64,000 nucleotides of DNA from a bacterium (GCA_038128225.1 JAYPJF010000002.1:39451-103450), one strand, 5' to 3'. Shown: positions 11,163 through 57,329, numbered from the stretch's first letter. A program made the numbers and translations. The notes: generated by a model from the letters alone, not told the origin.

Positions 11163-11236
11163 TGCCGGATCGTCTAATGGTAGGACAGCAGCCTTTGAAG
11201 CTGTTTATCTTGGTTCGAATCCAAGTCCGGCAGCCA
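11163..11236 (+). tRNA. tRNA-Gln (anticodon UUG), CCA encoded
   Basis: Manual cloverleaf: acceptor TGCCGGA/TCCGGCA, D-arm GTCT-AATGGTA-GGAC, anticodon stem GCAGC/GCTGT with loop CTTTGAA (U33, UUG, A37), T-arm CTTGG-TTCGAAT-CCAAG, discriminator G, CCA. Confidence 0.85.
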
Positions 11237-36170: not shown

Positions 36171-37265
36171 ATGCGCGTTGCAGCATTGCTACTTATTGTG
36201 TGCTTCATAAGCACGTGGGTGTATGCGGACACGGCGTCGATAACGGTAACGGTGATTATCGCACAGTGTACTGACGGGTCTGATAATGATGGCGATACGC
36301 TGATTGACTACCCTTCTGACCCAGGGTGTTCTTCGACTGGGGATAATGATGAATCAAACGCTGCCCCGCACTGCTCGGACACTCTGGATAATGATTCTGA
36401 CGGTCTTACTGATTACCCCGCAGATCCTGGGTGCTATAAAACCAGTTATATTTCCGAGGCAATGGCTGCGGGGGGCGGCGGTGGTGGCGGGGGGGGTGGA
36501 GGAGGCGGAGGTGGGGTGGTATCGAGTGGGTCAGCGGTGACTCTAACCGGGTACGCCTATCCAAATAGCGTTGTGCACGTATACCAAGACGGACGACGGG
36601 TATTAGAAGTGTATGCGGGTTCCGATGCGCGCTTTACTGCAACGATACAAAATCTTTCTGCGGGTATTTATACGTTTGGTGTAAGTGCGCAAGATGAAGA
36701 CGGAAGACGTTCGGCGCTGTTTAATATTCCACTCTCCGTCTCTGTTTCATCACAAACAAGTATTGGCGGCACCGTACTCGCACCAACGATAACATCGGAT
36801 TACGAAAAAATTCGTCACGGTGACACTTTGACGCTTTTTGGAGCAACGATTCCGAACGCGCAAGTGACTGTTGAAGTCAATTCTGAGACACAGCTCTTTG
36901 TTCGCGCTGAATCAAATGCTGATGGCGCGTATCTCGCGAGATTTGATACGTCACAGATCGAGCGCGGAGATCACGTCGCGCGCGCGAAAGCCGAGTCTGA
37001 AACTCTTTCGATTCCGTATGGGACGGCGATAGGGTTTGTTGTTGGCGATGTAAACGTGCCGCGTGTTGAGGCGTCTGGTTCGGTGCGTAAAGGCGATCTC
37101 ACAAGTGATGGAAAAGTTGATATTCGAGATTTTTCAGTTGCTGCGTACTGGTATCGACGAACACTTACCGCCGAGTTTGCGCTCATCGAGTCTGAAAGGC
37201 TCAATGGCGATGGAAAAATTGATCTGAAAGATTTTAGTATCATGGCGTATTATTGGACCTCATAA
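36171..37265 (+). CDS. Secreted dockerin-domain protein with two Cys/Asp-rich Ca-binding-like repeats and a Gly15 linker
   Basis: Signal peptide. Two copies of C(T/S)DxxDNDxDxLxDYPxDPGC (thrombospondin-type-3-like DxDxDG). GGGGGGGGGGGGGGG linker. Beta-rich domain. C-terminal duplicated dockerin-like segments GDLTSDGKVDIRDFSVAAYWY / LNGDGKIDLKDFSIMAYYW. Confidence 0.55.
   Translation: MRVAALLLIVCFISTWVYADTASITVTVIIAQCTDGSDNDGDTLIDYPSDPGCSSTGDNDESNAAPHCSDTLDNDSDGLTDYPADPGCYKTSYISEAMAAGGGGGGGGGGGGGGGVVSSGSAVTLTGYAYPNSVVHVYQDGRRVLEVYAGSDARFTATIQNLSAGIYTFGVSAQDEDGRRSALFNIPLSVSVSSQTSIGGTVLAPTITSDYEKIRHGDTLTLFGATIPNAQVTVEVNSETQLFVRAESNADGAYLARFDTSQIERGDHVARAKAESETLSIPYGTAIGFVVGDVNVPRVEASGSVRKGDLTSDGKVDIRDFSVAAYWYRRTLTAEFALIESERLNGDGKIDLKDFSIMAYYWTS
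36468..36525 (+). repeat. Poly-glycine codon tract containing G6 and G8 homopolymers
   Basis: GCGGGGGGCGGCGGTGGTGGCGGGGGGGGTGGAGGAGGCGGAGGTGGGG, with G8 at 36489-36496. Confidence 0.8.
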
Positions 37266-38113
37266 CTATGCGTATCTGTTTTCGACCATTTCTCTTCGCC
37301 GCGTTAATAGCTGTGTTTGTTATAGTCCCAGACCAGGCGATTGCCGCATCAGTTGAAGCACGTGTCGCTCGAGACGGGGCCCTGTGGAGAGTCACATATA
37401 TTTTGCACGCAGAGGGGGCTGCGTTAAACGTACTTGCGGGGACGTTTCCTTTTTCTTCTGATCTAAAAGTAGAGCGCATAGAAACTGGACGTAGTATCAT
37501 CCAGCTTTGGGTTACTTCTCCCAAAAATGACCGTGCTGGCGTAACGTTTGAAGGAGTTGTTCCGGGCGGATTTTTGGGGAGCGCAATCCCGTCCCGAGGA
37601 TTGACTGGCTCGGGAGAAATAATGACTGCCGTCTTTTCATCAGAAAAGGATCATGGGATATTGGCGGGTGGTTCTATTAGAGGGTATCTTCACGATGGCA
37701 GTGGGACGGAGGTTTCGCTTCCGTTTGCTGAAGTCACGTTTGATGCACGAACTCCTGAAGAAAACGTTTCTGATGACCGTACACCTCCCGCACGTATTTT
37801 TTTTGAAATTCTAAACGAGCCTTCAATGCTCGTGCTTGACGCTCAAGATAAAGAAACAGGCATCGATCGCTACGAGGTGAAGATAGGGCGCACTGAATGG
37901 AAGACTGTCGAGCCGCCGGTGCCGCTTTCGCAGGCGGAGCGAGATGCGCGCATTGCCGTGCGTGCATTTGATAACGCCGGAAATTTTCGTGAAGCCCTTG
38001 TTCAGGAATCATCTCCGAACGAAACATACAAGCGCATCTTAGGTATTATTGGCATACTCGTGATCGTCCTCGTACTGGCGGCGGTATATATGCGCGTGAT
38101 GCACAGGGAGTAG
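37253..38113 (+). CDS. Hypothetical secreted protein with a C-terminal TM anchor (286 aa)
   Basis: Signal peptide (FLFAALIAVFVIVPDQAIA), a beta-rich ectodomain, and a C-terminal TM helix (ILGIIGILVIVLVLAAVYM). Confidence 0.45.
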   Translation: MDLITMRICFRPFLFAALIAVFVIVPDQAIAASVEARVARDGALWRVTYILHAEGAALNVLAGTFPFSSDLKVERIETGRSIIQLWVTSPKNDRAGVTFEGVVPGGFLGSAIPSRGLTGSGEIMTAVFSSEKDHGILAGGSIRGYLHDGSGTEVSLPFAEVTFDARTPEENVSDDRTPPARIFFEILNEPSMLVLDAQDKETGIDRYEVKIGRTEWKTVEPPVPLSQAERDARIAVRAFDNAGNFREALVQESSPNETYKRILGIIGILVIVLVLAAVYMRVMHRE

Positions 38114-38137
38114 TTTCAGAACTTCTCTATACCGTCT

Positions 38138-39115
38138 ATGATACGTTTTATGAAGCACGCATTATTCTCTGGGATGCTCGGTGCGCTCTACTTCTGTGTA
38201 GGGGCGCTACCGTTAGTTGCAGATGCTGCAACACTCCAATTTGGTGGCGCAACGCAGGGGACTGTTGGAAGCACGCTCACGATTCCGATTACCGTGAGCG
38301 CAGCACAAGGAGAATCGGTTAACGCGGTTTCTGCAACAGTGCGTTTTCCCGCTGCGCTACTTGAGGCGACCTCAATGTCTTCTTCGGGGAGCATCGTAAA
38401 TTTTTGGGTGCAGCAACCAAGTTTTTCAGCCTCAGCGGGGACAGCAGAACTTGAGGGGGTAATACTCAATCCAGGTTTTAGCTCTCAGCAAGGAATAGTT
38501 GCAACACTGACGTTTCGAGTTCGCGCTGCTGGAGCAGCAACACTCTCATTTTCTTCGGCTTCAGTTTTAGCGAATGATGGGGCGGGGAGTAACATACTCA
38601 CCGCGTCTCCGTCAAAAACACTCACCCTTACTGCTCCTGAGGTAAAGAAAGAAGAGCAAAAGAAGATCGAGCCGACGACAGGAAGCGCTGAAGAGAAAAA
38701 ACCAATCGAGGTTGTGCCGCCACCACTACGTGAAGCAACAAGCGCTCTTGAGATTTCGCCGATACAGGACGATGTCCCCGCGACGTCGACTTACCAGACG
38801 CATCCGGCACCGTCGTTCGGGTATGCACTTCCTTTAGCAACGGGGCTCGCGATCCTTGGCTGGCTCATAATACTTGCACGGTTCCTTTTCGATCGGAGAG
38901 CTAAGGTGCCGCCTTTGAAACGTATCGCTGCAGCCGACCGCGCACTCCACCAAGCGCTTAAAGACCTACGATCTGACCTCTCGCACGAACTGAAACATTT
39001 GCGCGCAAAAGAGGGCGCAGGCACGCTAACGGTCGAGGAACGGCATATTTTGAAGCGTTTTGCAGGAGCGATGAACGAATTTGATAAAATTGACTCCGAC
39101 TCGGAGCGAGCGTAA
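38138..39115 (+). CDS. Membrane-anchored cohesin-like domain protein with a cytoplasmic coiled-coil tail
   Basis: Signal peptide. ATLQFGGATQGTVGSTLTIPITVSAAQGESVNAVSATVRFPAALLEATS...GIVATLTFRVRAAGAATLSFSSASVLANDGAG matches the cohesin beta-sandwich pattern (GxT(V/L)xIPVx(V/F)S...VNAxxxx(V/I)xF(D/P)..LE...). Then a Pro/Glu linker, a TM helix (LATGLAILGWLIILARFLF), and a basic/coiled tail. Confidence 0.55.
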   Translation: MIRFMKHALFSGMLGALYFCVGALPLVADAATLQFGGATQGTVGSTLTIPITVSAAQGESVNAVSATVRFPAALLEATSMSSSGSIVNFWVQQPSFSASAGTAELEGVILNPGFSSQQGIVATLTFRVRAAGAATLSFSSASVLANDGAGSNILTASPSKTLTLTAPEVKKEEQKKIEPTTGSAEEKKPIEVVPPPLREATSALEISPIQDDVPATSTYQTHPAPSFGYALPLATGLAILGWLIILARFLFDRRAKVPPLKRIAAADRALHQALKDLRSDLSHELKHLRAKEGAGTLTVEERHILKRFAGAMNEFDKIDSDSERA

Positions 39116-40037: not shown

Positions 40038-41717
40038 TTATAAACCTGGTGTCGGTGTTTCTCGGTCTACCCAATCACTTGCGGTATTGGTGTCAGTAGT
40101 TACTGACGATCGAGCAATCGAGTGACCGTCTGCGACTGACGCGGTTGATGGATCAAACGCTGTTGTATTTGACCCCCACGAAACTGCGTCAACCACAGTG
40201 TCTCCGCTTTTTAGAAACACTCCGTCGCTCGAATTACTCAAACCGTTGCCGATTGAGCCGCCCAGAACAACTACCGGTACACCCCCGGGGAAACTCCAGA
40301 AGTTCGCGGTTGTGCTGGTGCCGGTGACAATGAGGTATCCTCCTGCTGCGATCGTTGTTGTTGCAGGGAAGGCATCAGTTGAAGTAGCGTCCATGATAGA
40401 CCATCCGCTTATGTCGACAGGGGAAGCTGTGGGGTTATAAAGTTCCACCCACTCATTTCCGGGGTCGTCACCGTGAGCCGTGTCAGGATTATAGTACGCC
40501 TCACTGATAATGACATGAGCAACTTGCGGCGCGGGTTCAAGTACCGTCACCACGACGCTGTCCGCCGCTTCACCGCCCAATCCAGAGCACGTGAGCGTGT
40601 ATGTGCTTGTAGTCGCTGGACTTGCTGCAATCGAACTGTTGAGCGGAACTGCGCCACTCCATGCTCCTGAGCCTGTGCAGGTTGTTGCCTGTGTTGACGC
40701 CCACGAAAGCGTCGTAGTTCCGCCACGGGTAATAGTTGTTGGGTTGGCCGTCAAATCCACCGTCGGCATTGGGTGTGGACTTACGGTCACGGTTTCCGAT
40801 TCAGATACTGAACCTCCCGCGCCCGTACAGGTGAGCGTGTACGTTGTTGTCGTTGCAGGGGTAACTACCATGGAGCCTGAGGTGTCTTTTGACCCCGACC
40901 AGCCATCTGAGGCGGTGCACGCGGTGGTGTTTGTTGAACTCCAGCTGATAAGCGAGCTTGTGCCTACAAGGATACTCGCCGGGTTAACGGTAAGCGAAAG
41001 AGTTGGTGTGGGCGCTGGTGTAACCGTAACCGTTGTTGTGCCCGAAACCGATCCTCCGTTTCCTGTGCACGTAAGAACATACTGCGCGGTTGTGGTAGGA
41101 GAGACGCCCTCGCTGCCTGAAGTTGTTTTTAACCCACTCCAATTGCCTGATGCGGTGCAGCCGTTTGCGTTTGCAGCAGTCCATGAGAGTGTCGCGCTGT
41201 TGCCGGACACTATCGTTGTTGGGCTAGCGCCGAAGGTAAGAGTTGGCTGCGAGGGCGGCGCCGCGTTTACGGTAACCGTTGCGGAATCGCTTGTGGATCC
41301 AGTCGCATTACTGCAGGTGAGTGTGTATGTAGTCGTTGTTGCTGGGGAGACACTCAGAGAGCCATTTTTTTCTTGAGCGCCACTCCAACCACCGGAAGCC
41401 GTACACGTTTCGGCGTTTGCACTTGACCAGGTAAGTAACGATGAGCTGCCCACAGTAATCGACTCTGGGTTACTTACGTGAGATACGGTAGGTACAGGCA
41501 GCGGCGGAGTCTCACGACACATCCATAACTGCACGTGACTCGGGAACCGTTGTTTCAGCGGTTTAAGACCTTCGCACACTTGATCGTAAATATGGTTACG
41601 CAGATCATCGTATCGAAGTGGCGAATGATACGCGGAGCCAGCCTCAAGGACACCGACTCCTGCCGATAAAAACACAAGAGTTAATAAACCAAGCCAAGAA
41701 GCACGAAGTAATGCCAT
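40038..41717 (-). CDS. Secreted protein with 4 tandem Ig-like repeats and a C-terminal lamin-tail domain (LTD)
   Basis: Signal peptide. Four repeats of ~90 aa (T(L/V)T.NP..I..G.S..L.W.S.NA..CTASG.WSG.K..SGS..VSPATTTTYTLTC.G.GGS.S.S.TVTV). C-terminal HVIISEAYYNPDTAHGDDPGNEWVELYNPTASPVDISGW...SNSSDGVFLKSGDTVVDAVSWG is the LTD signature. Confidence 0.7.
   Translation of the reverse strand: MALLRASWLGLLTLVFLSAGVGVLEAGSAYHSPLRYDDLRNHIYDQVCEGLKPLKQRFPSHVQLWMCRETPPLPVPTVSHVSNPESITVGSSSLLTWSSANAETCTASGGWSGAQEKNGSLSVSPATTTTYTLTCSNATGSTSDSATVTVNAAPPSQPTLTFGASPTTIVSGNSATLSWTAANANGCTASGNWSGLKTTSGSEGVSPTTTAQYVLTCTGNGGSVSGTTTVTVTPAPTPTLSLTVNPASILVGTSSLISWSSTNTTACTASDGWSGSKDTSGSMVVTPATTTTYTLTCTGAGGSVSESETVTVSPHPMPTVDLTANPTTITRGGTTTLSWASTQATTCTGSGAWSGAVPLNSSIAASPATTSTYTLTCSGLGGEAADSVVVTVLEPAPQVAHVIISEAYYNPDTAHGDDPGNEWVELYNPTASPVDISGWSIMDATSTDAFPATTTIAAGGYLIVTGTSTTANFWSFPGGVPVVVLGGSIGNGLSNSSDGVFLKSGDTVVDAVSWGSNTTAFDPSTASVADGHSIARSSVTTDTNTASDWVDRETPTPGL
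40400..41495 (-). repeat. Tandem ~270-bp coding repeats (4 copies) encoding the Ig-like modules
   Basis: Visible protein-level periodicity, and recurrent DNA blocks (e.g. GTGAGCGTGTA...GTTGTCGTTGCAGG, ACGGTAACCGTTG...). Confidence 0.65.
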
Positions 41718-42833: not shown

Positions 42834-43904
42834 ATGTCAATATTTCGGATGCCGAAAGCACCTTCGTGGTTTGAGCCATACGTGCGCTACATCCCAACTG
42901 TTGCGCTTGTTTGGGGTATTATTTGGGACTCGCTCACACTGAGCCGCCCGGATCGCATTTTTGATAATCTTGTCGTACTTGCATACCTCACGCTTTCCGC
43001 GGGGATAATAGTACTCCTCAACATGGAACATAAGCGGCGCAGCATAGAACCGCTACTTCTTTTAGGCGTTCTTCAGTTTAGTTTTGGCAACCTGACAAGT
43101 GCACTCCTAATTTTGTACACAAAAAGTGGCACTATCATCGGAGGGGCGCTTTTTCTCGGGTTACTTGCACTTCTTTTGGTGAGTAACGAAGTGTTGCGTG
43201 AACGATATCAGCGCCTTCAGGTTCATATTGCGGTATGGTACCTTCTTGTACTTGCATACGCCGTTCTTATTGTGCCGGTACTCGTGGGCTCGATCGAATG
43301 GTATATGTTTTTTATGAGTCTTGGGGTTGCCCTCGGTGCCGCCATCGGACTTTTAAGTGTTGTGCACGCGGTAAGCCCGACAACAGTATGGAATCGTGTG
43401 CGGAATGTCGGTCCTTCAATAACTGCAGTTTCAATTGCGGTTATCGGACTCTACGCATTTAACTGGATTCCACCGGTCCCTCTCGCGCTTAAACATGTTG
43501 GTGTATATCACGCGGTGACTCGCACGGCAGAGGGATATGAGCTTACATACGAGGCGCCTTCGCGGCTCGCTTTTTGGCGATCCACAAGCGCAACGTATAA
43601 CCATCAAGGACAGCCAGCTTTTTGCGTCAGTGCCATATTTGCTCCAAAAAATCTGTCGCTTACGATCTACCATCGGTGGGAAAAGTGGAGTGAGGAACGA
43701 GAAGATTGGGACACCGTAAGCCTGATTCCATTTTCTATGAACGGGGGACGTGATGAGGGTTACCGTGGCTATTCTGAAACGAACCGTCTTACTCCAGGGT
43801 TGTGGCGCTGCGATGTTGAAACAGAACGGGGAGCCCTTATCGGCCGGGTAAAATTTTTTGTTCAGGAGGGTACTCCGACAGAATTATTTACCCGAGCGCT
43901 ATAA
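42834..43904 (+). CDS. Polytopic membrane protein with a C-terminal soluble domain (DUF2914-like, low confidence); start uncertain
   Basis: 5-6 TM helices, then a ...TIYHRWEKWSEE...TPGLWRCDVETERGALIGRVKFFV beta-rich domain. Confidence 0.4.
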   Translation: MSIFRMPKAPSWFEPYVRYIPTVALVWGIIWDSLTLSRPDRIFDNLVVLAYLTLSAGIIVLLNMEHKRRSIEPLLLLGVLQFSFGNLTSALLILYTKSGTIIGGALFLGLLALLLVSNEVLRERYQRLQVHIAVWYLLVLAYAVLIVPVLVGSIEWYMFFMSLGVALGAAIGLLSVVHAVSPTTVWNRVRNVGPSITAVSIAVIGLYAFNWIPPVPLALKHVGVYHAVTRTAEGYELTYEAPSRLAFWRSTSATYNHQGQPAFCVSAIFAPKNLSLTIYHRWEKWSEEREDWDTVSLIPFSMNGGRDEGYRGYSETNRLTPGLWRCDVETERGALIGRVKFFVQEGTPTELFTRAL

Positions 43905-45053
43905 AGGTTGTTCGATACCCACTTCAATCTGGAGGTGGGTCTCGACAGATGTCGTAGCGGTCGTAGTTGCAGTGCTTGTGGCTGTGGGCAATGTATCATC
44001 GTCCGCCTGCTCAGACACTTCGCTCTCACCGTCTTCTTGTACTGCGAGCATAAGATCAAGCGATCGCTCGAAACGGGTTTCAGCTTCCTCGAGGCGTCCT
44101 TCCGCAAACGCTGAGGCTCCAACGATACGTTCTCGTTCAGCTTCGTTGAAGCGTTCGCGCGCCGATTGTGCGACATCGCTTCCTAAACGTTTCTCGAGGC
44201 GCGATACGACACGGTCAGTATTTTTTGAACGTTCATGGGCCGTTTCAATGAGTCCTGCAACTCGGCCGCGCAATTCTTCGCGTGGCGGTTCTGATGCGGT
44301 AAGCGTGCTAAGTTCCGCGGCATTTGGTGCGGTGTCGGTTGCGGTGGGCGGCTCGATAGTGAGCGCCATTGTTCTTACCTCAGCCGCGTCCTCGGTGCTC
44401 GCTTTTGCCTGGGCCATCTCTGCGTGAGGTGTAGCGGAGAAGGCAAGGCGGACGGAAGAGCGTATGATGCGGTCACGTGCTTTTTCAGCAGCCAAGATGC
44501 GTGACTGGATATGTGCTTGTAGCTCTCGGGTGCCCGTGTCGGCCATACGTGATTCGGATGTTTCTGGTGTGGTTTCCACGTTATCTACAGCGCGGTGGGC
44601 GTCTTCTGCGTGTGCAGTAATATGTGCGTCGAGCTCGGTGCGGATTTCTGGTGTGAGGCGGTCCTCTGCCATGAGAAGTGTTGCTTCCGCGATCCTTCGC
44701 TCTGCGCGCTCAACCGCCCATAACGCTTGTTTTTCGCTCGAGACAATGAGTGCCGCGCGCACTTCTTCGGTGATAGAGACCTTGATTGGATACAGGGCGT
44801 CGCCAGGCAGTGCGTGTTCTGCAGCAAAAACAGTTCCACCAGACAATAGGATAATGAGAGAGAATGCGATGAGCGGAAGAGGGCGCAAGAAAGCAATGCC
44901 GATGAACCATGGAGACCGCTCTATAGCTTTGGTACGTATAGGTTTGTGCGCGATGTACGAAGTAAGAAACGTGTACATTCTCTCTTTTTCAGCGCTGGTC
45001 AACTGCTCGCGGCGCGCTTGGTCAAAAAATGTATCCGTGTGATCGTACTTCAT
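43899..45053 (-). CDS. Anti-sigma factor-like membrane protein (DUF5667-like periplasmic domain)
   Basis: Overlaps the upstream ECF sigma gene by 4 nt. Cytoplasmic N-terminus, TM helix, then LPGDALYPIK (the DUF5667 hallmark as I recall it) and a long helical/charged region. Confidence 0.55.
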   Translation of the reverse strand: MKYDHTDTFFDQARREQLTSAEKERMYTFLTSYIAHKPIRTKAIERSPWFIGIAFLRPLPLIAFSLIILLSGGTVFAAEHALPGDALYPIKVSITEEVRAALIVSSEKQALWAVERAERRIAEATLLMAEDRLTPEIRTELDAHITAHAEDAHRAVDNVETTPETSESRMADTGTRELQAHIQSRILAAEKARDRIIRSSVRLAFSATPHAEMAQAKASTEDAAEVRTMALTIEPPTATDTAPNAAELSTLTASEPPREELRGRVAGLIETAHERSKNTDRVVSRLEKRLGSDVAQSARERFNEAERERIVGASAFAEGRLEEAETRFERSLDLMLAVQEDGESEVSEQADDDTLPTATSTATTTATTSVETHLQIEVGIEQPL

Positions 45054-45550
45054 ATGATGTGTAATTTTGTTCGTAGTTGCGCGAGGCCACGATTAATACG
45101 TACTGAAACGACGTTCGGTGTCAGTGAAAGCACTCGCGCAATCTCCGCAGGCGTTAACCCTTCCATATAGCGTAAGGTGAGCGGCACGCGGTACGTTTCA
45201 TCGAGGGAAGACAACACGGAGCGGATATGCGCAAACTCAGCGGTGGTGTGTTGGGCCTCATTGGTTGAGGGTTCGAACCCGCTTTCCTCGAGCACGTCGA
45301 GAGAAACGCTTTTCTTTTTCCGATAAAAATCAATAATTGCGTTATGGGCCGTACGGTACAAAAACGCCTTCCACGAGTCGATAGCCCCTCCTTCGCGGAC
45401 GTAGTCCCATGTCTTTGCGAATACATCTTGAGTGAGGTCAAGCGCCTGCTCGCGCGCGCCCACACGGCTTAAACAAAAGCGGAAAATGCCATCGGCGTGT
45501 TCTTTGTGTGCTGCCAGGAATGCTTCTTCACTCTGAGACGGTTTACCCAT
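45050..45550 (-). CDS. ECF-type RNA polymerase sigma factor (sigma-70 family, regions 2 and 4)
   Basis: 166-aa ORF. Region 2 (DLTQDVFAKTWDYV) and region 4 HTH (LTPAEIARVLSLTPNVVSVRINRGLAQLR). Confidence 0.8.
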   Translation of the reverse strand: MGKPSQSEEAFLAAHKEHADGIFRFCLSRVGAREQALDLTQDVFAKTWDYVREGGAIDSWKAFLYRTAHNAIIDFYRKKKSVSLDVLEESGFEPSTNEAQHTTAEFAHIRSVLSSLDETYRVPLTLRYMEGLTPAEIARVLSLTPNVVSVRINRGLAQLRTKLHII

Positions 45551-45598
45551 ACATTCCTTACCATCCTACGTGAAATATTACATGCTACAATCCCCCCG

Positions 45599-46435
45599 AT
45601 GCGTATCGTAATCGGCGTTCTCTGTATAGGGTGTATCGTTTTCTCGTTTTTTGCCGTTGAGTCGTTGCGACGTGATCTTGAGTGGGAAACCACAATGGTG
45701 CGTACACAACACGCAGAGGAGCCGAGTGTCGTTACTGGAGTTACTACAGAAACAGACGCACGGATCCCAAAAAGTCTCGGTGTTCAAGAAGTGATCGTTG
45801 ACGAGGAGCATAAAACTTCAGAAAACACATCGCAGACACCCATAATGCAACAAGCCGAAAAGGGCGAATCATTTGCGAGCGCGTGGAAACATGCAAAAGC
45901 GACCATGTTTTGGGTTGGCGAGGATGCAACTTCTGACAATGGGTTTATTCACAATAGCGCGAGTGCGTGGGATGAAATCTGGGAGACGCATTTTGGGGGC
46001 GTTGATGACCCAGAGACCCGTTGTGGGTATCATCCGTGCGGGTTCACGCCAAAACAAAACCCTTTCTACGTTGCGCTTCCTTATAATGATTTTGATGATG
46101 AGGGGAATCGGAAGGCAAACGCGTCACGCGTGCCGTGGTTTGATGATAGGTCATCGGGATCATTGCTTGAAAATCGATGGGTTGAGGTACGCCGAAATGG
46201 CGTCTCGTGTTTTGGTCAGTGGCAGGATGTTGGACCGTTTGAGGAAGACGACGTTGAGTATGTGTTCGGTGATGCGGCTGCGCCGAAAAATACCACCATT
46301 GTTGGGGCGGGCATCGATCTCTCCCCGGCGCTTTCAGATTGCCTAAGCCTTGGCGGTTTGGGCGAGGTGGAATGGAGGCATGTGGCCACAGAGCGTGTAG
46401 TTCGTGGACCTTGGACCGACATCGTCACCCATTAA
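45599..46435 (+). CDS. Hypothetical secreted protein (278 aa from the internal ATG)
   Basis: The start at 45599 gives the signal/TM MRIVIGVLCIGCIVFSFFAV. Divergent from the ECF sigma gene, so possibly part of its regulon. Confidence 0.45.
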   Translation: MRIVIGVLCIGCIVFSFFAVESLRRDLEWETTMVRTQHAEEPSVVTGVTTETDARIPKSLGVQEVIVDEEHKTSENTSQTPIMQQAEKGESFASAWKHAKATMFWVGEDATSDNGFIHNSASAWDEIWETHFGGVDDPETRCGYHPCGFTPKQNPFYVALPYNDFDDEGNRKANASRVPWFDDRSSGSLLENRWVEVRRNGVSCFGQWQDVGPFEEDDVEYVFGDAAAPKNTTIVGAGIDLSPALSDCLSLGGLGEVEWRHVATERVVRGPWTDIVTH

Positions 46436-48572
46436 GGGTAAATGGTGCGATGCGGAGTCGCATGAGCGCGACATGGCAATCACCGTGGCGCTTTTGTACA
46501 CCCCAATGGAAGAGCGAGCCAGTGAGTGCAAGCCACACACTTTTGAGTACGATCGCGGCGATAAGGTATCGATAAAAAAGACGCTGTAACAAGAGTGTTG
46601 TGAACAACAGTCGGTAATGAGGGTGTTTTTCATCGCGTAGCGCAACTGCAGCAATGAGCATGTCGAAAAGTGTATAAGCCAGAAATGGGATGAGTATCAG
46701 CGATATATAAGACTGAGTAACAATTCCAATAATGAGCGCGATATCCAAAAGCGGGAGACACATCGGAAGGAGGACATTGAAGGTTATGGTGTATGGAAGT
46801 ACTAGAAAACCTAGCCACGGCCGAGAAGTCGAGGCAAACCAAGGGAGATACTTCCATACACACTGCACGGTTCCATACATCCAGCGCATCCGCTGCTTGA
46901 AAAATGCGCGAACCGTATGGGGCGTTTCAGTAAACGCATACGCGCGCGCATCATAACGAACCGAATATCCTTCCGAAAGCAGCTTGAATGTAAGATCCTG
47001 GTCTTCCACCACCGTGTCGGTCGAGTATCCTCCAAGACGCTCGATTACGTCCTTGCGCCATGCGCCGAGGGCTCCGGGCACGATATGAACTGCGTTTCCA
47101 AGTGCAAAAACCGTTTTATCAATGTTCTGTCCTTGTGTGTACTCAAGATACTGGAACGCACTCAAAAGGGTTTTGATTGCAGCAGGGTAGATTTTTCCGG
47201 ATACGGCGCCAACATGAGGGTCGCTGAAATGCGTCACCAGGTGTGTGATTGCGTCAGGGGCAACGATTGTATCGGCATCAATGCAGACGACGATGTTGTG
47301 TTGCGCATGGGGAAGTGCAAATGAAAGCGCTTTTGCTTTCGCCCCCTCGTTTTCTTTCTGAAGTAGTCGCAAGTGCGAGCCGATGAATGGAATTAGTGCA
47401 AGTACCCGAGCGCTGGTTTCATCGGTCGAACCGTCGTCGACGACAATTATTTCGTCGCCAGGGCGGATCGCTTTCGCTGCCGAGTGAATGGTCGCCTCGA
47501 TGTTGAGTGCCTCGTTGAAGGCTGGGATGAGCACTGACACCGGCTCGGTATGTGCTTCAAGGGGGGCGCGGCGAGCTCGTGCCCATGGCACATAGAGAAA
47601 ACGTAGAAGGAGAACCGTCCACATACGGGTAAGTCCGAGAATCACCAAAATACCGATAATACCCCAAAGAAGGGATGATCCTTGTGTGTATGCAACAGCG
47701 GCCCCAGCAAGAAGCGCATCCCGCCCAATGCCAAGTGGTGCGGCTGGCATGACATCGGCTTTAGTTAGACCGAGTTGCTGAGAAATTGGCACGAAGGTGT
47801 ATCCTTCAGCTTTCATTGTTGCAATGAATCCAGGGAGCGCCTCAAGTGTCGTTCCGCTTCCAGCCTCTTCGTGAAGAAGCACTACGTTATGTTTGCGATT
47901 TGATTGATTGTACACACCTTCTATAAGGCGTCGCTCGAGGCGCGCTTTCCCAGTTTTCGGGTCCGACTCCAACCAATCAAGTGAATCGATTGTGGTACCA
48001 ATAACAAGAAAACCCGCTTTCTCTGCCCAGCGGAACGCCTCTGCGTTTTGGGTGCTGCCATCGAGTTCCCATGATTCAAAGTCAATCAAAAAAGGAGGGC
48101 GGTATAGATATGATGTATGCCCAGTAATATTCCTCAATACTCGGTCTGCGGCACTTAATTCCGCACGGAGCCGGCGTTCATTGGCATGCACCTCACGAGA
48201 GTGGGTAAATGTGTGGTTCCCGATTTCAAAAAGAGGCGAAGTAGCAACACGGCGAACGATATCCGGATGCTTCACCATATACTCTCCTATGAAGAAAAAA
48301 GTCGCAGGCACGTGTTCGCGTTCGAGAAGGTCGAGAAGCTGTGGCGTATACACTTCGTGTGGGCCGTCATCAAAAGATAACGAGATCCATTTATCGGAGT
48401 TTTCCGCAGTAGTATTTGCGGTGAGTTGTGGCGCAACATGAGTATCGCGCACCACCGCTTCCATTGAATAGGGAATTGAAACTAAAAACAGTATGGTGAT
48501 TCCGATGACCGCACACGCACTAAGGCCGTACACAAACCATTTTCTCCATCCGTGACGGTCATAAAAAATCAT
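46425..48572 (-). CDS. Fusion protein: polysaccharide deacetylase (NodB/CE4) plus processive family-2 glycosyltransferase (PgaB/PgaC- or IcaB/IcaA-like)
   Basis: N-terminal TM. The CE4 motifs ISLSFDDGP and FFFIGEYMVKHPDIVRRV...GNHTFTH. TM segments. The GT2 motifs VLIPAFNEA, VVDDGSTDETS, and QxxRW (QRMRWMYG). A C-terminal TM bundle. Confidence 0.8.
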   Translation of the reverse strand: MIFYDRHGWRKWFVYGLSACAVIGITILFLVSIPYSMEAVVRDTHVAPQLTANTTAENSDKWISLSFDDGPHEVYTPQLLDLLEREHVPATFFFIGEYMVKHPDIVRRVATSPLFEIGNHTFTHSREVHANERRLRAELSAADRVLRNITGHTSYLYRPPFLIDFESWELDGSTQNAEAFRWAEKAGFLVIGTTIDSLDWLESDPKTGKARLERRLIEGVYNQSNRKHNVVLLHEEAGSGTTLEALPGFIATMKAEGYTFVPISQQLGLTKADVMPAAPLGIGRDALLAGAAVAYTQGSSLLWGIIGILVILGLTRMWTVLLLRFLYVPWARARRAPLEAHTEPVSVLIPAFNEALNIEATIHSAAKAIRPGDEIIVVDDGSTDETSARVLALIPFIGSHLRLLQKENEGAKAKALSFALPHAQHNIVVCIDADTIVAPDAITHLVTHFSDPHVGAVSGKIYPAAIKTLLSAFQYLEYTQGQNIDKTVFALGNAVHIVPGALGAWRKDVIERLGGYSTDTVVEDQDLTFKLLSEGYSVRYDARAYAFTETPHTVRAFFKQRMRWMYGTVQCVWKYLPWFASTSRPWLGFLVLPYTITFNVLLPMCLPLLDIALIIGIVTQSYISLILIPFLAYTLFDMLIAAVALRDEKHPHYRLLFTTLLLQRLFYRYLIAAIVLKSVWLALTGSLFHWGVQKRHGDCHVALMRLRIAPFTLNG

Positions 48573-48654
48573 GCAACATCAGCCTATCATAAGCGCCACC
48601 ACGAAACGTCAATCACAACACGGGTTTGGTATCAGGCAATGATTGTTGTACTAT

Positions 48655-48993
48655 ATGCAGATGATCATAAAACAGCTCTTGGTGTCGGTCGTAGCAATTT
48701 TTCTTGGTGCATACCTCATTCCCGGTGTCAGTATTACCGTTGCGGGTGCGCTAGTGCTTTCGCTTGTTTTAGGAATCATCAACATGTTCATTAAGCCTAT
48801 CGTGCAGCTTGTGGCTTTGCCGCTCACCATCATGACATTCGGGCTTTTTGCACTCGTCATTAATGCGCTTTTGATCATGCTCGCCGATTATTTTGTGGCA
48901 GGCTTTGCGGTTTCTGGTTTTTGGGTGGCGCTCTTGTTTGCGCTGCTTATATCAGTTGTGACCGCATTGTTCGGCTCCTTCATTCGCGGGTAA
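48655..48993 (+). CDS. Phage-holin-family-4 / DUF360-like small membrane protein
   Basis: 3-4 TM helices in ~113 aa (IIKQLLVSVVAIFLGAYLIPGVSI..., ...NALLIMLADYF...), typical of the YvlD/DUF360 holin-like family. Confidence 0.5.
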   Translation: MQMIIKQLLVSVVAIFLGAYLIPGVSITVAGALVLSLVLGIINMFIKPIVQLVALPLTIMTFGLFALVINALLIMLADYFVAGFAVSGFWVALLFALLISVVTALFGSFIRG

Positions 48994-49057
48994 TAAATCT
49001 CAGTTCATTCACTGCGCTCTAATTGCTGGAGTGCGCTAGAGGTGATACGGTTTAGCT

Positions 49058-49966
49058 ATGCAAAAAACGATTATAGGCGTACTCGTTCTTGGAATCATTG
49101 CAGGCGGAATATACGTTGCGCTCAAGAACGCGTCCCTCGTGGAAAACGTAGACTCTTCTCGAAGCGCTGAGACTGCACTGAAACGTACAACTATCGACAT
49201 GTCCGAATTTGGCGCTGGCATGGTTACACTTACCGACGGGGAAGCCACATTCAAAGTGGATGGTCAGGAGACCCCCACCGGATATGTTTCAGTGAACGGC
49301 GCGCGCGGGGAGATTCGCAGTGGCGACGACAGTGAATTTTTTGTGCCGATGAGTGTGAGTGGTGGCGGTACTGGAGTGTTTCAATTTCTCGTTCACTTTA
49401 CATATGAACATGACACTGATCAAGTTGTCGAACGGCAGCGCATACTACTCGGAGATCGAATTTTGGTAACCGCAATCAATGTTGAACAAACTGCACCGAC
49501 CGCATACGAAGTCTTAGTTTCGGTGAAGGATCGTGGCGTGTTCGACGCAATGGCTTCAGTGCCATCACAGGATCGGGTATTACACTTTAAGAGAGGAAGT
49601 GACGGGCAGTTTGAACTTGCGCACGTCATTTACGGAACGCTCGAAGACTACACTATAGTTGTCGTGTGGCCCTTGCCCAATGCACAAGTCGGCAAATCGT
49701 TTACGGTGCAGGGGGCAGCGCGCGGGCCGTGGTATTTTGAGGCTAGTTTTCCGGCGGTGGTAAAAAATGCGGAGGGAGACATTGTCGGACAAGGTATTGC
49801 CCAAGCTGAAGGAGAGTGGATGACTGAAGAACTTGTTCCTTTTGTGGCGCCGGTCACTTTGCCTGACGATGCCCACGGCGTATACGCGCTTGTACTCCAA
49901 AAGGACAACCCTTCCGGATTGCCTGAGAACGAGGCGTCAATCGAGTTTCCAATTTTCGTACAATAA
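49058..49966 (+). CDS. Secreted protein with a C-terminal Gmad2-like Ig-fold domain
   Basis: N-terminal TM/signal. The C-terminal FTVQGAARGPWYFEASFPAVVKNAEGDIVGQGIAQAEGEWMTEE matches the Gmad2/GerM-associated Ig-like domain pattern. Confidence 0.5.
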   Translation: MQKTIIGVLVLGIIAGGIYVALKNASLVENVDSSRSAETALKRTTIDMSEFGAGMVTLTDGEATFKVDGQETPTGYVSVNGARGEIRSGDDSEFFVPMSVSGGGTGVFQFLVHFTYEHDTDQVVERQRILLGDRILVTAINVEQTAPTAYEVLVSVKDRGVFDAMASVPSQDRVLHFKRGSDGQFELAHVIYGTLEDYTIVVVWPLPNAQVGKSFTVQGAARGPWYFEASFPAVVKNAEGDIVGQGIAQAEGEWMTEELVPFVAPVTLPDDAHGVYALVLQKDNPSGLPENEASIEFPIFVQ

Positions 49967-55480: not shown

Positions 55481-56614
55481 ATGCGAATTGTAATGGTTGC
55501 ATCGCCATGGTTAGGGGGAAGCGGAACCGTCGCCTCTCGTTTGGCTCGCGCCCTTGCGAGAAACGAACATGTGGTGCGGCTTGTTACGTATCCAACGGCG
55601 AGCTCCGCACAAACTAATGCGGAAATGCCTGCAAGTCTTGTTGAGCCGTTTGAATTTCCCTTGTTTCCGTTCCCGTTATACGAGCTTGCGCTTGCGGAAA
55701 AAATTGCGGAGGAAGTGCTTTCAATTAACGCCGAAGTTATCCATGCGCATTACGGGATACTTTTTGGTCACGCGGCCTTTTTAGCACAACAGAGTTTGCG
55801 GATTCGAGGCTACGAAGTACCGATTGTGCTTACATTGCACGGAACAGATGTGCTCGGGCTTGATCTCGCTCGCCCTGGCGCAGTTGCTCCCAAGCATCTT
55901 AATACGCTCATCATTCGCTCCGCCGATGCAGTCTCGGCGGTGTCAGATAATTTGGCAGCGTACGCAAAAGATCTTTATGGGGTCGCCAACTCACATATAC
56001 ATGTAGTACACAACGCTATAAATACAAAGGTTTTCTCGCCACAATTTGATGTTGAGCGCTCGTGCGAGAACCCAATAGTAATCCACGCTTCTAATTTTCG
56101 CTCCGTCAAACGCCCGCTGCTTGTTCTTGAGGTGTTTGAACTTCTGCGAAAAAAGCGAGCAGTTCAGATGCGGTTTGTCGGCGAAGGTCCAGAACTCAGC
56201 GCGGTAAAAGAACAAGTACGCATTCGTTCAATTCCCGATGTAAGTTTTTCTGGGGTCCTTTCTGAGCGCGAACTTGCAAAAAGTTTTGCGCGCAGCCGAG
56301 CGCTTATTTTGCCGTCAACTTATGAAAGTTTCTCCCTCGTAGCACTTGAAGCACACGCGACCGGTACGCCTGTTGTTGCGTCACGGGTAGGAGGGATCGA
56401 TGAGGTTGTGCGCCATGAAGAAACAGGTTACTTGGTTGATCCTTGCGCGCCTGCATCAGTGTACGCTGCTACTGTAGAACGAATCCTCTCAGCTTCTCCA
56501 CATGAGTATCAGCGCATGAGCGACGCGGCATGGGAACATGCGCGGAAATTTGATGAAGAGATAATTACCGCACAATATCTCTCATTGTATCAACGTACGC
56601 TTAAAAAAGATTAG
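55481..56614 (+). CDS. GT4-family glycosyltransferase, BshA/MshA-like (N-acetylglucosaminyl transferase type)
   Basis: MRIVMVASPWLGGSGTVASRLARALARNEHVVRLVTYP mirrors the BshA/MshA N-terminal signature. The C-terminal GT-B half contains E...E motifs (EGPEL..., ESFSLVALEAHATGTPVVAS). Confidence 0.65.
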   Translation: MRIVMVASPWLGGSGTVASRLARALARNEHVVRLVTYPTASSAQTNAEMPASLVEPFEFPLFPFPLYELALAEKIAEEVLSINAEVIHAHYGILFGHAAFLAQQSLRIRGYEVPIVLTLHGTDVLGLDLARPGAVAPKHLNTLIIRSADAVSAVSDNLAAYAKDLYGVANSHIHVVHNAINTKVFSPQFDVERSCENPIVIHASNFRSVKRPLLVLEVFELLRKKRAVQMRFVGEGPELSAVKEQVRIRSIPDVSFSGVLSERELAKSFARSRALILPSTYESFSLVALEAHATGTPVVASRVGGIDEVVRHEETGYLVDPCAPASVYAATVERILSASPHEYQRMSDAAWEHARKFDEEIITAQYLSLYQRTLKKD

Positions 56615-57329
56615 GGAGAAATTGGAAAGGATCCGCCAAACCGATTGGTGAATATACTGAACGGTACGCTTCCCCAAACGTCCGATTAATTAGAAAACCG
56701 TTTCGACGCGCGCGCGCCTCCCACATTTTTTTTACTGAATCGCTTGTGTCTACTGTTTGCACCGTATCTGGGCGAGTGCTGAATTGTGATTCGTGTGCAA
56801 GCAATGCTTTCATTTTTGTTTCCCACACGTCAGAAATATCAAGAATAAAGGAGGGCTCAAATTCCTGCCACATTTCATAATAGAGAATATGGGTAGGGCG
56901 GTGGCGCTCCTGCCCGGTTTCATACTTGCGCAACCCAGCAGTAAAAACTGCTTCTCGCACCAACTTGGGTGTGTTCTCATGATCTGGATGTCGATCAAAT
57001 TCATGGGGGATCAATATCATCCGCGGTTTGTGTTTTCTTATTGTTCGTATGAAAACATCTTGTGTTTCTCTCGAGTTAAAAAGAAAATTGTTAGGGAGGC
57101 CCAAGTTTTCTCGGACCGATACGCCAAGGATTTCCGCTGCACGCGCTGCCTCTGTCTGGCGTTCGTCTACGGTTCCGTTTGTAGAAAGTTCTCCTTTTGT
57201 TACGTCGATAATGCACGTCGTGTATTCGAGTTTGTGCGCGAGTGCGAGTAGGCCACCACAACCAAACTCGACATCGTCAGGATGGGGGCCGATTGCCATT
57301 ATGTCGACATCGTCGGGACTGTCTCTCAT
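56601..57329 (-). CDS. PIG-L/LmbE family N-acetylglucosaminyl deacetylase (BshB-like)
   Basis: AIGPHPDDVEFGCGG and a HxxH-type metal-binding motif (HPDHENT), which define the PIG-L family. Confidence 0.65.
   Translation of the reverse strand: MRDSPDDVDIMAIGPHPDDVEFGCGGLLALAHKLEYTTCIIDVTKGELSTNGTVDERQTEAARAAEILGVSVRENLGLPNNFLFNSRETQDVFIRTIRKHKPRMILIPHEFDRHPDHENTPKLVREAVFTAGLRKYETGQERHRPTHILYYEMWQEFEPSFILDISDVWETKMKALLAHESQFSTRPDTVQTVDTSDSVKKMWEARARRNGFLINRTFGEAYRSVYSPIGLADPFQFLPNLF

What the first reader, a model, noticed from the sequence alone, without database searches (positions are those of the whole stretch)
46425..48993. Polysaccharide deacetylase fused to a processive family-2 glycosyltransferase (PNAG/chitin-synthase-like), adjacent to a holin-like membrane protein
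A single 715-aa polytopic protein has an N-terminal CE4/NodB deacetylase domain (DDGP, H..H motifs) and a C-terminal GT2 with QxxRW, the processive beta-glycan synthase hallmark. In PgaBC/IcaAB systems these functions are separate proteins. A fusion would synthesise and partly deacetylate an exopolysaccharide in one polypeptide. The divergently transcribed DUF360/holin-family-4-like protein could be unrelated, or could be a membrane partner in the way PgaD/IcaD are small membrane partners of the synthases.
Basis: partly seen in the sequence, partly recalled or inferred. Interest (0 to 1): 0.55.

Follow-up and report, generated by a model that had tools for sequence, protein, structure and literature searches.

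The report
Known-type poly-GlcNAc synthase–deacetylase fusion
One membrane protein of a Patescibacteria-like bacterium joins an outward-facing sugar deacetylase to an inward-facing polymer-making glycosyltransferase, but it belongs to a widespread, already named family (the Streptomyces MatB type); the 'holin-like' neighbour is not its partner, whereas a conserved secreted protein on the other side probably is.

Summary
Window 46425..48572 (-) is one uninterrupted 715-aa ORF. It has an N-terminal CE4/NodB deacetylase with all five catalytic motifs and a C-terminal GT2 with D, DxD, ED and QRMRW. The positive-inside rule across 34 homologues puts CE4 outside and GT2 inside. The architecture is not new. 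Streptomyces MatB (2015, 2018) has the same domain order and is required for production of PNAG. [quoted passage not shown] More than 1,700 homologues turned up, across Patescibacteria, Bacteroidota, Alphaproteobacteria and Actinomycetota. The GT2 half is closest to PgaC/IcaA (32% identity to E. coli PgaC) but scores far below the equivalog cutoff. The CE4 half resembles NodB/PgdA, not PgaB/IcaB. The product is therefore most likely a partly de-N-acetylated poly-GlcNAc, with the linkage undetermined. The DUF360/PF04020 neighbour is not linked to the synthase in any of about 90 related loci. The convergent gene at 45599..46435 (+) is different: it encodes a membrane-anchored protein with a double-psi beta-barrel domain and no Pfam family, and it sits next to the synthase in many Patescibacteria relatives. 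It is the better candidate partner. Verdict: ordinary new member of a known kind, with a modestly interesting conserved neighbour.

The parts
46425..48572 (-). Gene for the 715-aa bifunctional CE4 deacetylase / GT2 synthase (MatB type)
   Evidence: Single ORF. Pfam and NCBIfam domain hits. Collinear homologues. Identical gene call in public assemblies. AF2 model pLDDT 87.2, pTM 0.79.
48474..48536 (-). TM1 (aa 13-33), N-terminus cytoplasmic
   Evidence: Hydropathy 2.4. AF2 helix 9-42. Mean K+R in the 15-aa flanks across 34 homologues: 2.9 N-side versus 0.7 C-side.
47763..48404 (-). Extracytoplasmic CE4/NodB deacetylase domain (aa 57-270) with motifs MT1-MT5
   Evidence: PF01522 1.1e-27. Motifs. 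Invariant D68, D69, H120, H124, R158, D199, W200, H234. Foldseek matches Bc1960 and SpPgdA. Lies between TM1 and TM2.
47607..47681 (-). TM2 (aa 298-322), followed by an Arg-rich cytoplasmic stretch; aligns with TM2 of E. coli PgaC
   Evidence: Hydropathy 2.29. K+R 0.9 outside versus 3.9 inside. The BLASTP alignment to PgaC starts at query 306 = PgaC 41.
46848..47543 (-). Cytoplasmic GT2 catalytic domain (aa 344-575) with DDG379, DAD432, VED522, QRMRW560
   Evidence: Pfam GT2 families. PgaC_IcaA HMM 175.9 bits. 32% identity to PgaC, E 1e-40. Invariant residues. Foldseek matches HAS, BcsA and Chs1.
46509..46820 (-). C-terminal membrane region (aa 585-688): TM3, TM4 and a weakly hydrophobic third helix that is probably an interface helix
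   Evidence: AF2 helices 585-619, 623-646 and 654-684. K+R: TM3 4.0 in / 0.1 out; TM4 0.03 out / 2.5 in. The third helix has 3.2 / 2.8 and a mean hydropathy of only 1.1.
45599..46435 (+). Convergent gene whose 3' end overlaps the synthase gene by 11 nt. It encodes a 278-aa protein: an N-terminal TM anchor, a variable linker, and a conserved domain of about 180 aa with a double-psi beta-barrel fold. Candidate extracellular partner.
   Evidence: Gene call of 278 aa. No Pfam or PDB sequence match. The best-ranked Foldseek matches (kiwellin, PA4485, cerato-platanin, expansin, barwin-like) are double-psi beta-barrel proteins. Adjacent to the synthase gene in L084, L085, L086, L091, L092 and L093. 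20 exact contig-length matches with synthase homologues.
48661..48993 (+). Divergent DUF360/PF04020 ('phage holin 4_2') membrane protein, inside the finding's coordinates but not linked to the synthase
   Evidence: PF04020 8.3e-27. No homologue in the flanks of any related locus. No shared contig lengths with synthase homologues.

Best explanation
The gene encodes a MatB-type bifunctional exopolysaccharide enzyme of a Patescibacteria-like (Paceibacteria/Kaiserbacteria-related) bacterium.

Proposed mechanism:
- The cytoplasmic PgaC-like GT2 domain polymerises UDP-GlcNAc processively, using D, DxD, ED and QRMRW.
- The chain leaves through the membrane part of the same protein, a minimal cellulose-synthase-like fold with four TM helices plus interface helices, perhaps as an oligomer or with a helper.
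- The CE4 domain sits in the extracytoplasmic loop between TM1 and TM2. It removes some N-acetyl groups from the emerging chain, giving a partly cationic, adhesive surface polymer.
- A beta-1,6 linkage (PNAG) is favoured but not established.
- The conserved convergent neighbour, a membrane-anchored double-psi beta-barrel protein, is inferred to bind or trim the polymer outside the cell.
- The DUF360 gene is an unrelated neighbour.

Shown here: the single ORF, the domains, complete and conserved catalytic motifs, the family distribution, and the gene linkage. Inferred: topology (positive-inside rule plus AF2), substrate, product, and the partner's role.
For: - Single ORF and domains.
- All CE4 (MT1-5) and GT2 (D, DxD, ED, QxxRW) motifs are present and invariant in 34 homologues.
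- The GT2 half is 32% identical to E. coli PgaC over 287 aa, E 1e-40. PgaC_IcaA is the best NCBIfam model at 175.9 bits, against 76.5 for NodC and 64.7 for CelA.
- Fusion proteins from Micromonospora, Lentzea, Elizabethkingia, Prevotella and an alphaproteobacterium score much the same on that model, 183-210 bits.
[quoted passage not shown] It is needed for dispersin-B-sensitive, mAb F598-reactive PNAG (PMC5972031).
- Topology: K+R counts across the family are 2.9/0.7, 0.9/3.9, 4.0/0.1 and 0.03/2.5 for TM1-4, and the AF2 helices agree.
- The AF2 model matches hyaluronan synthase (1e-16), PcManGT, BcsA and chitin synthases; its CE4 part matches Bc1960.
- Partner linkage.
Against: - Nothing has been tested biochemically for this protein or any Patescibacteria homologue.
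- The PgaC_IcaA score is far below the equivalog cutoff (175.9 versus 422.3).
- The CE4 half resembles NodB/PdaB/PgdA, which act on beta-1,4-linked GlcNAc substrates. It scores only 17 bits on PgaB and does not match IcaB.
- Relatives carry GH18 and CBM_4_9+CE4 genes nearby, and larger family members have a fused GH18 domain. This points towards a chitin-like product.
- Four TM helices may be too few for a channel. PgaC, IcaA and MatB each need a second membrane protein (PMC7112194, PMC5972031), and no PgaD homologue is in the window.
- One protein carrying this family name, IgtG, glycosylates a lasso peptide rather than making an EPS (PMC11912497).
- The beta-barrel partner is absent next to some close relatives (L082, L087, L088, L024).
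Confidence: 0.75

Rival explanations
1. Same machine, different product: the enzyme makes a beta-1,4-linked GlcNAc polymer or oligomer (chitin- or chitosan-like, a fused NodC/NodB analogue) rather than beta-1,6 PNAG.
For: - The CE4 domain's best models are PdaB, NodB and PgdA (107, 94 and 94 bits), against PgaB at 17 bits and no IcaB match.
- GH18 genes lie 1-5 kb from the synthase in L082/L083 and L084. CBM_4_9+CE4 genes lie nearby in L084 and L091.
- Family members of about 1,100 aa carry a fused GH18 domain.
- The linked beta-barrel protein resembles barwin, cerato-platanin and expansin folds. From general knowledge, those bind chitin, cellulose or peptidoglycan.
- There are weak Chitin_synth_2 hits.
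Against: - The GT2 half scores 100 bits higher on PgaC_IcaA than on NodC.
- For MatB, the CE4 domain also looked like beta-1,4-type enzymes, yet the polymer behaved as PNAG and calcofluor staining was unaffected (PMC5972031).
- The window itself has no GH18 gene.
Confidence: 0.25
2. The protein is not an exopolysaccharide synthase. It is an iterative glycosyltransferase that decorates a peptide, protein or lipid acceptor, as IgtG does with a lasso peptide, and the CE4 domain is accessory.
For: IgtG carries the same NCBI family name and has four predicted TM helices (PMC11912497). The minimal four-TM fold also matches PcManGT, a mannosyltransferase (TM-score 0.71-0.76 on the target).
Against: - No RiPP precursor, cyclase or protease genes lie near the gene.
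- The QxxRW motif and interface helix are conserved.
- The outward-facing CE4 domain keeps a complete active site, which only makes sense if an acetylated glycan reaches the outside.
- The linked neighbours in relatives are glycan-active (CE4, GH18, CBM).
Confidence: 0.07
3. One reading: the divergent DUF360/holin-family protein is a small membrane partner of the synthase, analogous to PgaD or IcaD.
For: The gene is adjacent, separated by an intergenic region of about 70-88 nt, and encodes a small polytopic membrane protein.
Against: - No DUF360 homologue was found by tblastn in the flanks of any of about 88 loci that encode relatives of the synthase.
- None of the 120 closest DUF360 homologues shares a contig length with the listed synthase homologues, against 20 of 80 tabulated for the beta-barrel gene.
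- It is divergently transcribed, and a same-strand Gmad2-domain gene follows it.
- The family also occurs in unrelated phyla, for example Lutibacter.
Confidence: 0.04
4. The CE4 domain works on the cell's own peptidoglycan (PgdA-like) rather than on the nascent polymer, and the fusion only tethers it to the membrane.
For: The CE4 half is most similar in sequence and fold to peptidoglycan GlcNAc deacetylases. Some family members carry a PG_binding_1 domain.
Against: - The fusion is conserved in order and length across at least four phyla, with both active sites invariant. That argues for sequential action on one substrate.
- MatB is read as IcaA plus IcaB in one protein (PMC5972031).
Confidence: 0.1

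Closest known systems
Streptomyces MatB (SCO2962 / SLI_3306), the bifunctional PNAG synthase/deacetylase of the matAB locus
   Same: Same domain order (N-terminal NodB-like CE4, C-terminal PgaC-like GT2). Similar size: the deletion construct's downstream arm starts at +2190 of SCO2962, against 2,148 bp here. Same predicted topology, CE4 outside and GT2 inside. The CE4 domain looks like beta-1,4-type enzymes while the GT2 looks like PgaC. Actinomycete fusion proteins align collinearly with residues 54-699 at 32-38% identity.
   Different: MatB is translationally coupled to the upstream membrane protein MatA and followed by an IcaC-like acyltransferase. Here the upstream gene is divergent (DUF360), and the linked gene is a convergent, membrane-anchored beta-barrel protein. 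The host is a Patescibacteria-like organism, not an actinomycete.
PgaC/PgaD + PgaB (E. coli) and IcaA/IcaD + IcaB (Staphylococcus) PNAG systems
   Same: The GT2 half is 32% identical to PgaC with all catalytic motifs. TM2 aligns with PgaC TM2. A CE4 deacetylase acts outside the membrane.
   Different: The functions are fused. The PgaC_IcaA score is below the equivalog cutoff. The CE4 half is not PgaB/IcaB-like. No PgaD, PgaA or PgaB homologue is in the window, and no c-di-GMP module was detected.
IgtG, a 'bifunctional polysaccharide deacetylase/GT2 family protein' that iteratively glycosylates a lasso peptide (PMC11912497)
   Same: Same NCBI family name and architecture ID, with four predicted TM helices.
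   Different: IgtG sits in a RiPP gene cluster. No such cluster is present here.
Membrane-integrated processive GT2 synthases (BcsA, hyaluronan synthase, chitin synthase) and the minimal-fold PcManGT
   Same: GT-A domain with QxxRW on an interface helix, packed against TM helices. Foldseek E 1e-16 to 1e-12.
   Different: Only four TM helices. No PilZ or other regulatory domain. An extracytoplasmic enzyme domain is inserted between TM1 and TM2.
NodC / NodB chitooligosaccharide synthase and deacetylase
   Same: GT2 plus CE4 chemistry on GlcNAc chains. The CE4 half scores 94 bits on NodB.
   Different: Both halves are below the NodC (76.5 versus 550) and NodB (94.9 versus 240) cutoffs. From general knowledge, NodB is cytoplasmic, whereas this CE4 domain is predicted to be outside.

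Membership tests
[quoted passage not shown] | N-terminal CE4 domain and C-terminal GT2 domain in one uninterrupted polypeptide | tested here: met
   Collinear with homologues that carry this name (P0004, P0012, P0063).
[quoted passage not shown] | Complete CE4 active site (MT1 DD, MT2 HxxxH, MT3 RxPY/F, MT4 DxxDW, MT5 LxH) | tested here: met
   invariant in A1.
[quoted passage not shown] | GT2 motifs D, DxD, ED and QxxRW | tested here: met
   DDG379, DAD432, VED522, QRMRW560; invariant.
[quoted passage not shown] | CE4 extracytoplasmic and GT2 cytoplasmic | tested here: met
   By prediction only: positive-inside counts over 34 sequences and AF2 helices. No experiment.
[quoted passage not shown] | Co-transcribed MatA-like membrane protein upstream | tested here: inconclusive
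   No co-directional upstream gene. A different linked membrane-anchored protein lies at 45599..46435.
[quoted passage not shown] | Product is partly deacetylated PNAG | not testable with these tools
   Needs biochemistry.
PgaC/IcaA equivalog (TIGR03937) | Score at or above the curated cutoff of 422.3 bits | tested here: not met
   175.9 bits. It is the best-scoring family but only a homologue, not an equivalog.
PgaC/IcaA equivalog (TIGR03937) | Small membrane partner PgaD or IcaD encoded alongside | tested here: not met
   tblastn of E. coli PgaD against the window found nothing below E = 5. IcaD was not tested because no sequence was available.
PgaB / IcaB PNAG deacetylases | CE4 domain matches the PgaB (TIGR03938) or IcaB model | tested here: not met
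   PgaB 17.2 bits against a cutoff of 321.9; no IcaB hit.
NodC / NodB | Scores above the curated cutoffs (550 and 240 bits) | tested here: not met
   76.5 and 94.9 bits.
Membrane-embedded processive GT2 synthase fold (BcsA/HAS/Chs) | GT-A domain plus a QxxRW interface helix packed on a TM bundle | tested here: met
   Foldseek: 7sp7 9.7e-17, 4p00 1e-13, 8k3v 1.5e-12. Model pLDDT 87.
PF04020 (Phage_holin_4_2 / DUF360), for the neighbour | Pfam gathering score | tested here: met
   94.3 bits against 28.8. Whether it acts as a holin was not tested. No phage genes were among the window genes scanned with Pfam (36-62.7 kb and 724-2892).
Double-psi beta-barrel (barwin-like / RlpA / expansin D1) superfamily, for the 45599..46435 protein | Fold match to solved double-psi beta-barrel proteins | tested here: inconclusive
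   The best-ranked Foldseek hits are double-psi beta-barrel proteins, but E-values are only 3e-4 to 2e-2 and TM-scores 0.45-0.69 on the target. Model pLDDT is above 88 only for about aa 160-270. No sequence-level Pfam or PDB hit.

The most novel reading that the evidence does not exclude
In a clade of Patescibacteria, the MatB-type synthase works as a minimal two-gene surface-polymer system with a so-far undescribed protein family (at least 851 members, no Pfam model). That protein has a single TM anchor and an extracellular double-psi beta-barrel domain rich in invariant Asp, Glu and Trp residues. It would bind, cut or anchor the nascent, possibly chitosan-like, GlcNAc polymer. Its TM helix might also serve the PgaD/IcaD/MatA-like helper role. 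The polymer could be the glue these small-genome bacteria use to attach to host cells.
Probability: 0.3. Interest if true: 0.5.

Novelty: new member of a known kind. Interest (0 to 1): 0.25.

Why it matters
The fusion alone adds little, because this architecture is described, named and common. Two modest points remain.

1. The gene suggests that this Patescibacteria-like organism, with its small genome, can make a cationic GlcNAc exopolysaccharide with a single enzyme. That bears on how such bacteria adhere to surfaces or hosts.

2. The conserved beta-barrel neighbour is an unannotated family with strong gene linkage to the synthase. It gives a concrete, testable candidate for the missing accessory component of fused PNAG-type systems.

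Tried and rejected
- **DUF360 as partner:** rejected. tblastn against about 88 related loci found nothing, and there were no contig-length matches.
- **Pga system components:** E. coli PgaD, PgaA and PgaB were searched against the window and none was found.
- **GH18 or further CE4 genes in the window:** searched with relatives' neighbours as queries; none was found apart from the fusion itself.
- **Beta-barrel protein outside Patescibacteria:** searched by HMM over the 88 loci fetched up to that point. It was found only next to Patescibacteria synthases.
- **MatA-like gene next to an actinomycete homologue (L019):** the flanks hold a peptidase-like gene and an ECF sigma-like gene, which was not informative.
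- **Promoter and terminator scan around the gene:** no more sites than shuffled sequence gives.
- **Rfam scan of the window:** only one tRNA.
- **Direct comparison with MatB and MatA:** not possible, because their sequences could not be retrieved.
- **Full phylogeny against IcaA, NodC, BcsA and HAS:** not built for lack of reference sequences. NCBIfam model scores were used as a proxy.
Full report
**1. The observation**

The window has one uninterrupted ORF at 46425..48572 on the minus strand (715 aa, ATG start). Public assemblies that carry the identical sequence call the same 715-aa product. Pfam finds Polysacc_deac_1 at aa 57-161 (1.1e-27) and several overlapping GT2 models at aa 344-633 (3e-28 to 7e-27).

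A regular-expression scan finds all five CE4 motifs: SFDDG66, HTFTH120, RPPF158, DSLDW196 and LLH232. It also finds the GT2 signature DDG379, DAD432, VED522 and QRMRW560. In an alignment of 34 family members at 33-50% identity, these catalytic residues are invariant. The alignment runs from a conserved N-terminus (M1, F3, R10) to near the C-terminus. The start codon is therefore right, and no frameshift or hidden stop splits the domains.

**2. Topology**

Hydropathy gives strong TM segments at aa 13-33 and 298-322 flanking the CE4 domain, and further segments after the GT2 domain. An AlphaFold2 model built on the 34-sequence alignment is confident (mean pLDDT 87.2, pTM 0.79). It has long helices at 9-42, 283-334, 554-574 (carrying QRMRW), 585-619, 623-646 and 654-684.

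I counted Lys+Arg in the 15 residues on each side of each segment over all 34 sequences:

| Segment | N-side K+R | C-side K+R |
|---|---|---|
| TM1 | 2.9 | 0.7 |
| TM2 | 0.9 | 3.9 |
| TM3 | 4.0 | 0.1 |
| TM4 | 0.03 | 2.5 |
| Fifth helix | 3.2 | 2.8 |

The fifth helix is positive on both sides and only weakly hydrophobic (mean 1.1). By the positive-inside rule this gives four TM helices: N-terminus in, CE4 out, GT2 in, C-terminus in. The last helix is probably an interface helix. This is a prediction, not a measurement. It agrees with the four TM helices reported for the family member IgtG (PMC11912497).

The BLASTP alignment to E. coli PgaC begins at query 306 = PgaC 41. The protein can therefore be read as a PgaC-like synthase with a CE4 domain inserted in the outside loop between its first two TM helices. 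That reading is an inference.

**3. What it is related to**

The GT2 half is 32% identical to E. coli PgaC over 287 aa (E 1e-40). Among NCBIfam models, PgaC_IcaA scores best at 175.9 bits. MftF scores 88, NodC 76.5 and CelA 64.7. The PgaC_IcaA equivalog cutoff is 422.3, so the protein is a homologue and not an equivalog.

The CE4 half on its own scores best on PdaB (107 bits), NodB (94) and PgdA (94). It scores only 17 bits on PgaB and nothing on IcaB. The solved structures closest in sequence are Bacillus peptidoglycan deacetylases for the CE4 half. For the GT2 half they are PcManGT, BcsA, hyaluronan synthase and chitin synthase. No fused protein has been solved. Foldseek on the model agrees: hyaluronan synthase 1e-16, PcManGT 6e-15 (TM-score 0.71-0.76 on the target), BcsA 1e-13, Chs1 1e-12 and Bc1960 9e-12.

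**4. Is the fusion new? No.**

- The homology search returned 1,772 proteins at E <= 1e-10 from only 8,000 scored candidates, and all 120 listed carry both domains.
- Variants add PG_binding_1 (about 800 aa) or GH18 (about 1,100 aa; Bacillus relatives, Spirosoma).
- A scan of one genome per species found full-length collinear relatives in Kaiserbacteria, Paceibacterota, Elizabethkingia meningoseptica, Prevotella denticola, many Rhizomicrobium and other alphaproteobacterial MAGs, Micromonospora, Dactylosporangium and Lentzea.
- In 2018 matAB was shown to be required for a polymer that is sensitive to dispersin B and periodate and reacts with mAb F598, namely PNAG. The CE4 domain was predicted to be extracellular and the GT2 intracellular (PMC5972031).
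- Deacetylase-GT fusions were also noted in a survey of EPS operons (PMC7112194).

Fusion proteins from five other genera score 183-210 bits on PgaC_IcaA, much like the window protein. It is therefore a typical member. The nearest non-self homologues are only 49-51% identical, so I classify it as a new member of a known kind.

**5. The DUF360 neighbour**

The gene at 48643/48661..48993 (+) is a solid PF04020 member. tblastn with it found no homologue in any of the about 88 loci fetched around relatives of the synthase.

As a wider test, I compared the 'longest contig' lengths of the 120 closest DUF360 homologues with those of 75 of the listed synthase homologues. There were no exact matches. 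The gene is divergent, and a same-strand Gmad2-domain gene follows it. The PgaD/IcaD-like partner idea is not supported.

**6. The neighbour that is conserved**

On the other side lies a convergent ORF (45497..46435). Its real start is almost certainly Met35, giving 45599..46435 and 278 aa. That matches the public gene calls and the length of the 98%-identical cluster representative P0121. Its 3' end overlaps the synthase gene's 3' end by 11 nt.

The protein has three parts:
- an N-terminal TM helix;
- a variable, low-confidence linker;
- a conserved domain of about 180 aa with 48 invariant positions, including E108, D125, D136, D210, D217, D218 and D240, five Trp and three Cys.

It has no Pfam family and no sequence match in the PDB. 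851 homologues were found, and every one of the listed hits that carries a source name is called hypothetical. The AF2 model is confident only for about aa 160-270. Its best-ranked Foldseek matches are double-psi beta-barrel proteins: kiwellin 3e-4, PA4485, Streptomyces papain inhibitor, cerato-platanin, bacterial expansins and barwin-like proteins. The fold assignment is therefore probable but not secure.

Linkage to the synthase is strong:
- A homologue lies directly next to the synthase gene in L084, L085, L086 and L091 (a Kaiserbacteria MAG).
- It does so in L092, with the same 11-nt convergent overlap.
- It also does so, in a rearranged position beside an extra CE4 gene, in L093, whose synthase is only 36% identical to the query.
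- Twenty of the 80 beta-barrel homologues whose contig lengths were tabulated share an exact contig length with a synthase homologue.

It is absent next to some relatives (L082/83, L087, L088, L024) and outside Patescibacteria. I infer an extracellular glycan-binding or glycan-cleaving accessory protein. Its function is not shown.

**7. Which polymer?**

For PNAG: the GT2 domain's affinity to PgaC/IcaA and the MatB precedent.

For a beta-1,4 chitin- or chitosan-like product:
- the NodB/PgdA-like CE4 domain;
- GH18 genes 1-5 kb away in L082/83 and L084;
- CBM_4_9+CE4 genes in L084 and L091;
- GH18 fused in the long family members;
- the barwin/expansin-like partner.

The same CE4 ambiguity was noted for MatB, whose product nevertheless behaved as PNAG. 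The window itself has no GH18 gene or second CE4 gene and no PgaA, PgaB or PgaD homologue. I therefore commit only to 'partly de-N-acetylated poly-GlcNAc', with beta-1,6 favoured roughly 2:1 over beta-1,4.

**8. Context**

The nearest homologues of all three genes come from Patescibacteria (Paceibacterota, Kaiserbacteria, Parcubacteria) MAGs. Surrounding genes are housekeeping or envelope genes:
- an ECF sigma factor plus a DUF5667 protein;
- a DUF2914 protein;
- TyrRS, Hsp20 and FKBP;
- UvrB and UvrA;
- GT4 and PIG-L genes;
- surface proteins with Ig-like, cohesin and LTD domains.

Nothing among the genes scanned points to a phage or a RiPP cluster.

**9. Verdict**

The architecture is already known and common, and the proposed holin-like partner is not supported. 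The one item of some novelty is the conserved, unannotated beta-barrel neighbour.

Noticed in passing
window 45599..46435 (+): Unannotated protein family (at least 851 homologues, no Pfam, no PDB sequence match). It has a TM anchor plus a conserved Cys/Trp/Asp-rich domain with a probable double-psi beta-barrel fold. It is tightly linked to MatB-type synthase genes in Patescibacteria, often with overlapping convergent 3' ends (11 nt here and in L092).
   Followed up: yes
L082/L083 9236-10447, L084 12580-13791, L084 9285-10748, L091 6029-7546: Relatives' synthase neighbourhoods carry a 403-aa GH18 protein and a CBM_4_9+CE4 protein. Long family members (about 1,100 aa, Bacillus/Metabacillus/Spirosoma) have GH18 fused to CE4-GT2. 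This may hint at a beta-1,4 GlcNAc polymer.
   Followed up: partly
window 43899..45550 (-): An ECF-type sigma factor (45050..45550) sits in an apparent operon with a DUF5667 protein (43899..45053), divergent from the beta-barrel gene. An ECF sigma-like gene also lies just downstream of the fusion gene in the Dactylosporangium loci L019/L036. This may be coincidental.
   Followed up: partly
window 40038..41717 (-): A 559-aa protein with a Lamin Tail Domain. It contains three tandem segments of about 74 aa (about 40542-41471) that are 51-61% identical to a segment of the CBM_4_9+CE4 protein of L084. Probably a surface protein.
   Followed up: no
window 36171..39115 (+): A run of probable surface proteins with Big_6 and cohesin domains, plus several ORFs with no family.
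   Followed up: no
window 55481..57329: A GT4 glycosyltransferase (55481..56614, +) converges on a PIG-L/LmbE-type GlcNAc de-N-acetylase (56601..57329, -). This is a second, unrelated GlcNAc-deacetylating function in the window.
   Followed up: no
window 48661..49966 (+): A same-strand Gmad2 (Ig-like) domain protein of 302 aa follows the DUF360 gene. This pair, rather than the synthase, may be the DUF360 gene's own unit.
   Followed up: no
whole window: GC skew is positive in every 2-kb bin, and most ORFs chosen by a greedy longest-ORF pass are on the + strand. This is consistent with one replication arm. Rfam finds only one tRNA (11163..11233).
   Followed up: no
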